A DNA stretch of 13,917 bases from IMG/VR virus record IMGVR_UViG_2751185972_000005; one strand, 5' to 3'. Within the stretch, counting starts at the first letter, position 1; each line of letters starts with the position of its first letter. The position numbers and the translations under genes are program-made. Positions 1,251-3,818 of this stretch are shown here, one piece after another. The notes beneath the pieces are model-generated. The model ran no database searches and had not been told where the DNA came from. It saw only the letters and a list, made by a program, of their open reading frames with translations. The stretch comes from a virus (lineage: Duplodnaviria > Heunggongvirae > Uroviricota > Caudoviricetes).

Positions 1251-3818
1251 CGTCCACCTCCGGAGAACAGACCACCATCGCGCATCTGTGCCTGAATTTC
1301 ATCACGGGCACCCTTGCGGGCCATGTCATACACTGCCTTCAGCATCTGTGGACCTGGCAGACCATTCGTACCGTCGTTCTGAATCACCACGTTGTTGTTC
1401 TGCTCAAATCTGATACCCTCTGAACGCCGCATTTGCGCCGGACTTCCGGTGCCACCGACATAACCGCCGGTGGCATAGCCGCGCATCAGCCGGTAAAGAT
1501 TTCCCACGCCAATCCGGCTGGTCGCCTCCTTCGTGAAGACAAACTCCCCGCGATGAACAATCCCCGCAGGTTCATATTTCCCCCCCGTCCCCGTAAATCC
1601 CCCGGTCGCGAAATGGAAGTTCGCGCCGCAGCCTGAATGGCCGTCCCCGTGGAGGCAGACGCACCACCACCGAAAGCACCGCCAATGGCGCTGCCGATAC
1701 TCCCGACTATCCCCACCATCGCCTGCTTCAGAAAAATCTCTGTCAGCATGGACAGCACAGAACGGGTGAAACCACGCCAGTTCTGTTCGCTGCCGGTCAG
1801 CATCGCCGCCATATTCTGTGCAATACCGTCAAAGGTCTGCGTGGCCGCGTTTTTAACCTGCGAAAAACTGTCCGTCGCACTTTCCGCCCACTCGCCCCAG
1901 CCGGACTTCATCCCGGCCATCCAGCTTCCACGAAGCTGCTCCTCCGCAGACCAGGTGTTCTTCAGTGCAGATGTGGCCTTCGCCAGCGCAGCCGGATTAT
2001 CACCGTACACCTCACGAAGGCGCTGCTCTTCCGACTCCCGCTGCGCCTGACGGTCAGTGAGGCCGCGGGCTTTTGCGCTGATTGCCGCCTGCTTCGCGCT
2101 CTGCTGCTGTTCAAACCGCGCCGCCTGCTGTGCCAGCTCATTCAGCCGCTTCTGGTGTTCAATCTTGTCTCCCAGCTCAGCCAGCTGCGTTTGTACTCCA
2201 GCGTCTCTTTCTCATGAGCCAGCAGGGATTTTTCCTGCTCAGATAACTGCCGTTTCGTGGCGGCCTCTTTCAGGACCACATACTGATTTTCCGCTTCCCA
2301 TAAATCCCGGCGCTGCTGGCTGATTTTCTCATTCACACCGCTGTGTTTTTCCAGCGTCCTGAGCTCGGTTTCAAGCGCCAGCATGGCTGCATGCGCCCGG
2401 TCTTCCTGGCGCTCACCGGCAGACACCTTCACACCTGACGGCTTTTTCAGCGTCGATTCATAATCCTTTTTTGCCGACGCCATCAGCGTGTTGTAATCCG
2501 CCTGCAGGATTTTTCCGTCTTTCAGGGCCTTATTCAGCTCTTTCTGACGGGCGGTATATTTATCCAGCGGCGTCTGCAGGCGCTCATACGCCTTCTGCGC
2601 CTCTCCGGTATACTTCAGCTGTGACGCCTCACGCTCAGCCCGGTCCCTTGCCGCCAGTTCACCGGCTTTTTCCATATCCGACTGCAGCGTGGCCGCTGCC
2701 AGACCCAGACGGGCATTTTCCCGGTCATCCCATGCCCCCTGAAGGTTCGCACGAAAAGAGGAGGTCTTTCCCCGGCGCTGGCTCCGACTCTGGTACCACT
2801 GCCATTTTTTATCCGCCTCATCAAATGCCTTCTGCGCACTGGCGAGCATATCCGCTGAGGATTCAGGACGACCGATATCCAGAATGGCATCCCACATCGA
2901 TTTGAATGCCTTCCCTGTTTTATCCGCCCAGGTCTCCAGTGTTCCCATGTTTTCTTTCAGGCGACGGGTCTGCTCATCAAAGCCTTTCGTGGCGATATCG
3001 TTCGCCGCCTGCAATGCCCCGGCCTCGTCTCCGGAACGCTGCAGCTGTGCAACATACGCAATCTGCTCTGCCGTCACGTTACGGAACTGGCGCGCCATCG
3101 CCATCAGTCCCGACGTCGGGTCAGTGGTCAGCTTCCCGAAGGCTTCAGCGACTTTATCCACCTCCACACCGGATGCAGACGCAAAACGCGCGACACTCTG
3201 GTTGATGGCATCAAACTGTTCACCACCACGCACACCGGCATTCACCAGGGCTGCCAGTGACTCTCTCGCCTGGTTAAACGTCAGCCCTGCTGCCTGCCCG
3301 GCTCTTGAGAGAGTCAGCATACGATCGGCAGTCAGTCCGGACTGATTACCGGAAAGAACCAGGGTTTTATTAAACGCTGAAAGCGTGGAATCTCCCTGGT
3401 ACCAGGCGTACACCAGCGCACCTGTCGCCACCGCCAGCGAGGTGACCCCGACCATCGGCAGGGTGATCGCACCGGCAAGCCCCCTGAACATGGGGATCAT
3501 CCCGCCGAAGGAGTCCTTCACCTGACCGCCCTGTTGCAGCAGGATCAGCCAGGGATTCTGACCACCTGCAAGCTGCGTGGCGATATCCGTAAACTGTGCG
3601 GGCAGGGTTCGCATGGCCGCTTTATACTGCCCGACGGAAATCCCGGCTTTTTGTGCAGCCAGCGCCTGGCGGCTCAGGCCCTGTTCAACAGCACTGGCGG
3701 TTTTTCTGGCGTCGGTATCCAGACCTGAAAAATGACGCCTTACCCGGCTCATCTGCTCATCGAAACGGACAGCATCCAGACTCAGGTCAATAACAAGATC
3801 ACCAACCGGCTGGGACAT
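1247..3818 (-). pseudogene. H: Tail tape measure protein H (lambda gpH-like), split into three frames by two apparent 1-nt deletions (about 2187-2189 and 1622-1629)
   Basis: Track ORFs 2142..3818 (558 aa, MSQPVGDLVIDLSLDAVRFDEQ...), 1486..2010 (YGDNPAALAKATSALKNTWSAEEQLRGSWMAGMKSGW...) and 1247..1507 (GNLYRLMRGYATGGYVG...RDGGLFSGGGR) are collinear with lambda gpH N-terminal, middle and C-terminal parts. Manual translation shows homology continuing in the adjacent frame across each break (QLAELGDKIEHQKRLNELAQQ... after LEYKR; NFHFATGGFTGTGGKYEPAGIVHRGEFVFTKEATSRIGVGNLYRLM after AIQAAA). Total length about 856 codons, against about 853 for lambda H. Confidence 0.88.

What the first reader, a model, noticed from the sequence alone, without database searches (positions are those of the whole stretch)
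1600..1650. Tape-measure gene H: second frame disruption (about 1622-1629)
Frame B ends ...TGTAIQAAA then RTSISRPGDLRG... (no homology), while the next frame reads NFHFATGGFTGTGGKYEPAGIVHRGEFVFTKEATSRIGVGNLYRLM, matching the gpH C-terminal region. The break falls in a GCGGCGCG stretch, consistent with loss of one base from a GCG repeat. Two independent lesions in one gene favour real decay, but are also what a noisy assembly would produce.
Basis: seen in the sequence. Interest (0 to 1): 0.45.

Follow-up and report, generated by a model that had tools for sequence, protein, structure and literature searches.

The report
Tape-measure frameshift: probable sequencing artefact
The frame break in the phage tail tape-measure gene is really in this sequence (one G missing from GCGGCGGCG), but it is most likely a base-calling error of the assembly rather than genuine gene decay, so it is ordinary.

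Summary
On the minus strand, tape-measure gene H (3818->1247) changes frame at + strand 1622-1629. One C (a G on the gene strand) is missing next to C1624, so GCGGCGGCG reads GCGGCGCG.

The preference for real decay is not supported. Other public sequences match every base of the window except three single-base deletions: C1624 and G2187 in H, and G7672 in capsid gene E. Each collapses a G/C doublet, and no private substitution accompanies them. Independent Shigella assemblies of the same prophage (L040, L041, L011) have 0-2 mismatches and intact genes. Restoring two bases gives an H gene identical to L040's (2574/2574).

The 1624 deletion was found in only one other public sequence, a contig of Shigella sp. 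FC1056. The 2187 deletion recurs in a contig of isolate FC2541. Both isolates come from one Ion Torrent PGM study. Both carry a different H allele, and each is otherwise identical to intact relatives.

This fits the published Ion Torrent "high-frequency indel" error: single C/G deletions in 2-3-base runs at non-random sites, which cause frameshifts.

The prophage is truly defective in other ways: an L frameshift shared by many Shigella assemblies, and an IS3-family insertion in the terminase gene. Interest is low.

The parts
1247..3818 (-). Lambda-type tail tape-measure gene H. As assembled it is split over three frames: 3818-2142 (558 aa), about 2187-1486, and about 1630-1247.
   Evidence: ORFs and translations. 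tblastn with intact H from L001 gives residues 1-544, 545-760 and 725-857 in three frames. Pfam TMP_2 and Tape_meas_lam_C match. The gene lies in the order G-T-H-M-L.
1622..1629 (-). The finding: a one-base deletion. The + strand reads CGCGCCGC, and a CC doublet has collapsed to C1624. On the gene strand GCGGCGGCG has become GCGGCGCG.
   Evidence: Alignments with L001, L002, L006, L038, L040 and L041. Absent from 1313 matching places in 5426 complete E. coli genomes. Found in only one other public sequence, L027.
1603..1628 (.). Imperfect inverted repeat (quasi-palindrome): CGG.CGCGAA / TTCGCG.CCG. In the intact sequence the missing base is the bulged base of this hairpin.
   Evidence: Single-strand DNA folds give -6.3 kcal/mol for the intact sequence and -9.2 for the deleted one. 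The same holds on the other strand.
2181..2190 (-). First H lesion: a GG doublet has collapsed to G2187 (CCAGCTGGCG -> CCAGCTGCG). On the gene strand AAACGCCAGCTGG has become AAACGCAGCTGG.
   Evidence: Absent from 1339 places in complete E. coli genomes. The identical deletion is the only difference between L035 (FC2541, Ion Torrent) and L028 over 10,448 bases.
7166..8193 (-). Major capsid gene E, split into 194-aa and 148-aa ORFs by a one-base deletion (a GG doublet collapsed to G7672, CACGGTCC -> CACGTCC).
   Evidence: Intact (342 aa) in L011, L040, L041 and L038, which are otherwise identical. Repair gives the E protein of L040. Absent from 1045 places in complete E. coli genomes.
222..921 (-). 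Minor tail gene L with a frameshift at the C run 732-736 (CCCC -> CCCCC). This lesion is real and is shared with other assemblies.
   Evidence: The exact 66-aa N-terminal fragment is on record in 64 contigs, including Shigella flexneri CDC 796-83, CCH060 and a 4.66-Mb chromosome. Window 1-941 is 100% identical to L017-L026.
11909..13541 (-). Terminase large-subunit gene A. It lacks its first 99 codons because of an insertion at 13541/13542.
   Evidence: tblastn matches residues 100-642 only. L011 shows the same junction at 100% identity through window 13665.
13542..13917 (+). Left end of an IS3-family insertion sequence. From memory it looks IS629/IS1203-like.
   Evidence: 100% identical to copies annotated 'IS3 family transposase / AL1L pseudoknot' in E. 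coli records. See also the annotation in L002.

Best explanation
The missing G at 1622-1629 is most likely an error in the consensus sequence, not a mutation in the bacterium. The error type is a flow-based (Ion Torrent-type) under-call, or 'high-frequency indel', that collapses a G/C doublet. In the organism, H is probably an intact 857-aa tape-measure gene identical to that of sister Shigella prophages. The same explanation covers the other H lesion (G2187) and the capsid lesion (G7672).

Shown: the deletion exists in this sequence. It is private against otherwise identical independent assemblies. It recurs only in a documented Ion Torrent assembly on another allele background.

Inferred: the window's own assembly was made with a similar error-prone platform, and the hairpin and GC-doublet context makes this site error-prone.
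For: 1. Apart from three single-base deletions, every base of the window matches another public sequence.
- Window 1-941 equals L017-L026.
- Window 793-8711 equals L040 with 0 mismatches and 3 gaps, at 1624, 2187 and 7672.
- Window 1911-13665 equals L011 with 0 mismatches and 2 gaps, IS junction included.
- Window 13542-13917 is 100% identical to other IS copies.

2. There are three private indels and zero private substitutions in about 13.9 kb. All three collapse a G/C doublet. If deletions fell at random positions, the chance of this is about 0.007.

3. Repairing the bases restores H (DNA identical to L040's, 857 aa) and E (342 aa).

4. The 1624 deletion was absent from all other collections searched.
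- 0 of 1313 places in 5426 complete E. coli genomes.
- 0 hits in genome contigs and metagenome contigs with 31-mer and 22-mer patterns.
- No protein among 5.8 billion clusters carries the out-of-frame tail.
- All ten loci L028-L037 are intact at this site.

5. The one other carrier is L027, the 13,778-bp contig of Shigella sp. FC1056.
- FC1056 was sequenced on an Ion Torrent PGM and assembled with AssemblerSPAdes (PMC6563743).
- L027 has a different H allele. Over 4.8 kb it differs from L028, L035 and L037 by that one base only.

6. L035 is the contig of isolate FC2541 from the same Ion Torrent study. Over 10,448 bases it differs from the complete genome CP026807.1 (L028) by 0 substitutions and one gap. 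That gap is exactly the window's other H lesion.

7. Bragg et al. 2013 (PMC3623719) describe PGM high-frequency indels with these properties.
- They are single-base events, and strand-asymmetric ones are dominated by C/G deletions.
- 82% of the strand-asymmetric ones fall in homopolymers of length 2-3.
- They occur about once per 1000-2000 bp.
- Their sites are shared between runs more often than chance allows.
- They cause frameshifts in assemblies.
Against: - The platform and reads behind the window are unknown, and I could not identify its source record.
- The prophage is already dead (IS in the terminase gene, L frameshift). Selection would therefore not remove real frameshifts in H or E.
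- The deleted base is the bulge of a quasi-palindrome. That context is also known, from my own knowledge, to favour real template-switch deletions, which could recur independently.
- Real H frameshifts do occur in this family. An example is the G7->G8 change at window 1580-1586, seen in L038 with 14 similar contigs and in L006.
- FC2541 is an Ion Torrent assembly yet is intact at 1624, so any error at this site is not obligatory.
Confidence: 0.85

Rival explanations
1. The lesion is genuine, very recent pseudogenisation. The isolate really lost one G in H, plus one base each at 2187 and 7672, while a prophage already inactivated by an IS drifted neutrally.
For: The element is truly defective: the IS3-family insertion in terminase is shared with L011, and the L frameshift is shared with 64 Shigella contigs. 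Other real one-base lesions exist in H of related Shigella prophages (L038 with 14 similar contigs, and L006).
Against: Three indels and no substitution separate the window from 0-mismatch relatives over 7.9-11.8 kb. All three fall in G/C doublets rather than long runs. Each H lesion recurs separately on a different allele background, and only in Ion Torrent assemblies. None appears in any other assembly examined.
Confidence: 0.08
2. The site is a recurrent real mutational hotspot. The deletion removes the bulged base of a quasi-palindrome through template switching or slippage, so it arises independently in different Shigella prophages.
For: The deletion turns a bulged hairpin into a tighter one, -6.3 to -9.2 kcal/mol. 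It is seen on two different allele backgrounds, the window and L027.
Against: It is absent from more than 1300 copies in complete E. coli genomes and from all non-Ion-Torrent Shigella loci examined. The 2187 lesion also recurs, yet it destroys a perfect palindrome (CCAGCTGG) instead of perfecting one, so a quasi-palindrome mechanism does not explain the whole set. The one known carrier comes from a platform documented to make exactly such errors.
Confidence: 0.05
3. The lesion is an inherited pseudogene allele that moved between prophages by recombination, so the window and L027 share one ancestral deletion.
For: The two share the identical deletion, and lambdoid prophages are mosaic. A block of substitutions starts at window 1642 in L027.
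Against: The window is identical to intact L001 and L040 on both sides of the site. L027 differs from the window at 1580 and from 1642 on. A shared tract could therefore be at most about 61 bp. L027's own closest relatives are intact.
Confidence: 0.02

Closest known systems
Bacteriophage lambda gpH-type tail tape-measure protein (Pfam TMP_2 PF06791 plus Tape_meas_lam_C PF09718)
   Same: Both domains are present. The repaired length is 857 aa. The gene sits in the lambda order G-T-H-M-L. It is 100% identical to annotated 'phage tail tape measure protein' genes of E. coli and Shigella prophages.
   Different: As assembled, the reading frame is broken twice, so no full-length product is encoded.
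Ion Torrent PGM high-frequency indel (HFI) and homopolymer under-call errors (Bragg et al. 2013, PMC3623719)
   Same: The lesions are single-base deletions of C/G in homopolymers of length two, about one per 4-5 kb, and they frameshift the assembly. The same sites recur in two documented PGM assemblies.
   Different: The window's own platform is unknown. Bragg et al. found most HFIs to be run-specific, whereas here two sites recur across assemblies.
Prophage decay in Shigella (IS insertions and frameshifts in lambdoid prophage remnants)
   Same: The same element carries an IS3-family insertion in the terminase gene and a shared frameshift in L. The window's T allele and the E allele of its sister contig L011 are named 'MULTISPECIES [Shigella]' by NCBI.
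   Different: The H lesion in question is not shared by any sister assembly of the same prophage, unlike the genuine lesions.
Quasi-palindrome (template-switch) frameshift mutations (known from E. coli and T4 genetics; cited from my own knowledge)
   Same: The deleted base is the bulged base of an imperfect hairpin, and the deletion perfects the stem.
   Different: The other two private deletions do not perfect palindromes. No carrier was found outside flow-based assemblies.

Membership tests
Lambda gpH-type tape-measure gene | Matches to the TMP_2 and Tape_meas_lam_C domains | tested here: met
   PF06791 at E 1.6e-69 in the 558-aa fragment. PF09718 at E 9.7e-23 in the middle fragment.
Lambda gpH-type tape-measure gene | Position between the tail assembly chaperones G/T and the tail-tip genes M/L | tested here: met
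   tblastn map of L001 proteins onto the window, and the annotation of L001.
Lambda gpH-type tape-measure gene | One uninterrupted ORF of about 850 aa | tested here: not met
   The gene spans three frames in the window. It becomes a single 857-aa ORF only after two bases are restored.
Genuine pseudogene (real frameshift in the organism) | The lesion is present in independent assemblies of the same lineage | tested here: not met
   L040, L041 and L038 are intact at 1624 with 0-2 mismatches elsewhere. As a contrast, the L lesion is shared by 64 contigs.
Genuine pseudogene (real frameshift in the organism) | The lesion is accompanied by the substitutions expected under neutral drift | tested here: not met
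   There are 0 private substitutions against 3 private one-base deletions.
Genuine pseudogene (real frameshift in the organism) | The lesion is supported by raw reads on both strands | not testable with these tools
   No reads are available, and the window's source record was not identified.
Flow-based (Ion Torrent) indel artefact | A single-base C/G deletion in a homopolymer of length 2-3 | tested here: met
   CC->C at 1624, GG->G at 2187 and GG->G at 7672. Criterion taken from PMC3623719.
Flow-based (Ion Torrent) indel artefact | The same site is affected in other runs of the platform but not on other platforms | tested here: met
   The 1624 site is deleted in FC1056 (L027) and the 2187 site in FC2541 (L035), both PGM assemblies. 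Both sites are intact in every other sequence examined.
Flow-based (Ion Torrent) indel artefact | The window's assembly was produced on such a platform | not testable with these tools
   The source is unknown. The frameshifted products are not in the protein collection.
Programmed ribosomal frameshift site | A slippery heptamer, and conservation of the two-frame arrangement in relatives | tested here: not met
   The sequence GCUGCGGCGCGAAC has no X XXY YYZ motif. All relatives encode H in a single frame.

The most novel reading that the evidence does not exclude
Positions 1624 and 2187 are real hypermutable sites in Shigella lambdoid tape-measure genes. On this reading, one-base deletions arise recurrently in vivo, and the 1624 deletion comes from template switching at a quasi-palindrome. 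Independent prophages would then be inactivated at the same nucleotide.
Probability: 0.06. Interest if true: 0.3.

Novelty: not a real feature. Interest (0 to 1): 0.07.

Why it matters
If this lesion were counted as real, the gene would be scored as a doubly hit pseudogene and the prophage as more decayed than it is. The useful lesson is practical. In this contig, one-base G/C-doublet deletions without accompanying substitutions mark consensus errors. The genuine inactivating events are the IS insertion in the terminase gene and the shared L frameshift. The two H sites appear to be reproducible error sites for Ion Torrent assemblies of lambdoid prophages, which is relevant to pseudogene counts in Shigella drafts.

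Tried and rejected
- **Shared pseudogene allele.** I searched for the exact lesion in complete E. coli genomes, GTDB representative genomes, JGI metagenomes and IMG/VR. I also searched for its out-of-frame peptide in 5.8 billion protein clusters. Only L027 was found. L027 turned out to be an Ion Torrent contig that is otherwise identical to intact relatives.
- **Recombinational import from an L027-like allele.** Rejected because the shared tract could be at most about 61 bp.
- **Programmed frameshifting.** Rejected because there is no slippery site and all relatives use a single frame.
- **Finding the window's own record.** Exact look-ups of its frameshifted products all failed: the 558-, 174-, 201-, 194- and 148-aa ORFs and six alternative starts. 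The platform of the window therefore remains unknown.
- **Absence from complete E. coli genomes as proof of error.** This is not a sufficient test on its own. The genuine Shigella L lesion is also absent from that collection. The Shigella loci were needed.
- **L031's 777-aa H fragment.** It looked like another carrier, but L031 has the intact motif and a different nearby indel.

Full report
**What is there.** The window is the late region of a lambda-like prophage on the minus strand. The gene order is A (terminase, truncated), W, B, C, D, E, FI, FII, Z, U, V, G, T, H, M, L and the start of K. An IS3-family element abuts the terminase gene at 13541/13542.

Gene H runs from 3818 down to 1247 and is read in three frames. 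Fragment 1 (3818-2142, 558 aa) matches Pfam TMP_2. The middle fragment matches Tape_meas_lam_C.

The reading ...TGTAIQAAA is followed by RTSISRPGDL... in one frame and by NFHFATGGFTGTGGKYEPAGIVHRGEFVF... in the next. Intact relatives read GCTGCGGCGGCGAAC there, so one base of a doublet is missing next to C1624. The observation and the proposed molecular lesion are confirmed.

**How the window compares with its relatives.** I first compared it with an intact E. coli prophage, L001 (NZ_CP042336). Positions 842-13541 differ by only two substitutions and four one-base indels, and each indel is a frameshift:
- +C in the C run 732-736 (gene L);
- -C at 1624 (H);
- -G at 2187 (H);
- -G at 7672 (capsid gene E).

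The window's T allele and the E allele of its sister contig L011, which carry those two substitutions, are named 'MULTISPECIES [Shigella]' and occur in roughly 120 contigs. Independent assemblies of that same Shigella prophage are decisive:
- L040 (Logan SRR29071024) equals window 793-8711 with 0 mismatches and three gaps. The gaps are exactly the deletions at 1624, 2187 and 7672.
- L041 shows the same three gaps and 2 mismatches.
- L011 (GCA_902501695.1) equals window 1911-13665, IS junction included, with 0 mismatches and the two gaps it covers.
- Window 1-941, including the L frameshift, is 100% identical to ten Shigella loci.
- The IS end is 100% identical to other copies.

The whole 13.9-kb window therefore differs from other public sequences only by three single-base deletions. 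Each collapses a G/C doublet, and no private substitution accompanies them. If deletions fell at random positions, all three would land in such doublets with probability about 0.007. Restoring the bases gives an H gene identical in DNA to L040's (2574/2574, 857 aa) and an intact 342-aa E.

**Is the lesion seen elsewhere?** A 61-mer centred on it matches 1313 places in 5426 complete E. coli genomes, and none carries the deletion. Exact patterns found nothing in GTDB representative genomes or JGI metagenomes. No protein among 5.8 billion clusters carries the out-of-frame tail.

Absence from E. coli alone is a weak test, because the genuine L lesion is also absent from that collection. However, ten Shigella loci of a related prophage (L028-L037) are all intact at the site.

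The one other carrier is L027 from IMG/VR. Its capsid protein and contig length (13,778 bp) identify it as Shigella sp. FC1056. FC1056 is an S. dysenteriae serotype 3 isolate, accession MECW00000000. It was sequenced on an Ion Torrent PGM (400-bp chemistry) and assembled with AssemblerSPAdes (PMC6563743).

L027 carries a different H allele, with a block of substitutions from window 1642 upstream. Over its 4.8-kb tail region it is identical to L028 (CP026807.1), L035 and L037 except for this one base.

L035 is the contig of isolate FC2541 (MINT00000000) from the same Ion Torrent study. Over 10,448 bases it differs from L028 by no substitution and a single gap, TACAAACG-CAGCTGGC. That gap is precisely the window's other H lesion at 2187.

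In summary, each of the window's two H lesions recurs on its own in a different Ion Torrent assembly. In each case the allele background is foreign, the sequence is otherwise identical to intact relatives, and the lesion appears nowhere else.

**Mechanism.** Bragg et al. (PMC3623719) describe PGM 'high-frequency indel' errors as follows:
- They are single-base events, and strand-asymmetric ones are dominated by C/G deletions.
- 82% of the strand-asymmetric ones lie in homopolymers of length two to three.
- They occur about once per 1000-2000 bp.
- Their sites are shared between runs more often than chance allows.
- They produce frameshifts in assemblies.

The three private deletions fit this description. 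For the 1624 site there is also a local rationale. The missing base is the bulged base of a GC-rich imperfect hairpin at 1603-1628, and the fold strengthens from -6.3 to -9.2 kcal/mol once it is removed. That this context makes a polymerase or base-caller skip the base is my inference.

I put about 0.85 on a consensus error. The remainder is split among three alternatives:
- real recent decay of an already dead prophage;
- a real recurrent quasi-palindrome hotspot;
- a recombined pseudogene allele, disfavoured because the shared tract could be at most about 61 bp.

The main weakness is that the platform and reads of the window's own assembly are unknown. Exact look-ups of its frameshifted products found nothing.

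**What is real in this element.** The prophage is truly defective. Its terminase gene is interrupted by an IS3-family element at a junction shared with L011. Its L gene carries a CCCC->CCCCC frameshift whose 66-aa product is on record in 64 contigs, including several named Shigella strains and a complete chromosome. Real H frameshifts also exist in sister lineages, at the G7 run 38 bp away. 'Prophage decay' is therefore true of the element but not, on present evidence, of this lesion.

**Verdict.** This is not a real biological feature, and interest is low.

Noticed in passing
window 7166-8193 (G7672): Major capsid gene E is split into 194-aa and 148-aa ORFs by a one-base deletion (CGGTCC -> CGTCC). 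The deletion is private to the window, and E is intact in L011, L040, L041 and L038, which are otherwise identical. It has the same signature as the two H lesions.
   Followed up: yes
window 222-921 (C run 732-736): Minor tail gene L has a CCCC->CCCCC frameshift that is genuine. The exact 66-aa fragment is on record in 64 contigs, including S. flexneri CDC 796-83, CCH060 and a 4.66-Mb chromosome.
   Followed up: yes
window 793-947: There is a mosaic junction here. Window 1-941 is 100% identical to the K/L end of a different Shigella prophage remnant, whose tape measure is 1013 aa (L017-L026). Window 842-13541 matches the lambda-like prophage of L001, L040 and L011. Contigs L027 and L040 end at 843 and 793. 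This is either a real recombinant prophage or an assembly join through a short repeat.
   Followed up: partly
window 13541/13542-13917: An IS3-family element (IS629/IS1203-like from memory) is inserted in terminase gene A and removes its first 99 codons. L011 has the same junction. E. coli TB354 (L002) has a related IS at a different position in the same gene.
   Followed up: partly
window 1580-1586; L038 about 7129; L006: The run of seven G (gene strand) in H is eight G in L038 (with 14 similar contigs, H not called there) and in the metagenome scaffold L006. This looks like a real slippage frameshift in H of a sister Shigella lineage, 38 bp from the finding.
   Followed up: partly
L030-L033 (CP026823, CP026805, CP026832, CP026825): Complete Shigella genomes carrying the related prophage differ from each other by many scattered one-base G/C deletions that split B, C, E, U and H. 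This suggests consensus errors in those assemblies as well.
   Followed up: no
L027 4599-6071 and 9331-9936: The S. dysenteriae-type prophage has a 490-aa C variant (extra T near the 3' end) and a V gene lacking its first 38 codons. Both products are on record in many contigs (97 and 53), including complete genomes, so both are real.
   Followed up: partly
L002 (E. coli TB354) locus 4246-6818: H is annotated 'frameshifted' in a complete E. coli genome. The cause is a one-base deletion at the equivalent of window 1863, which is a different site from the window's lesions.
   Followed up: no
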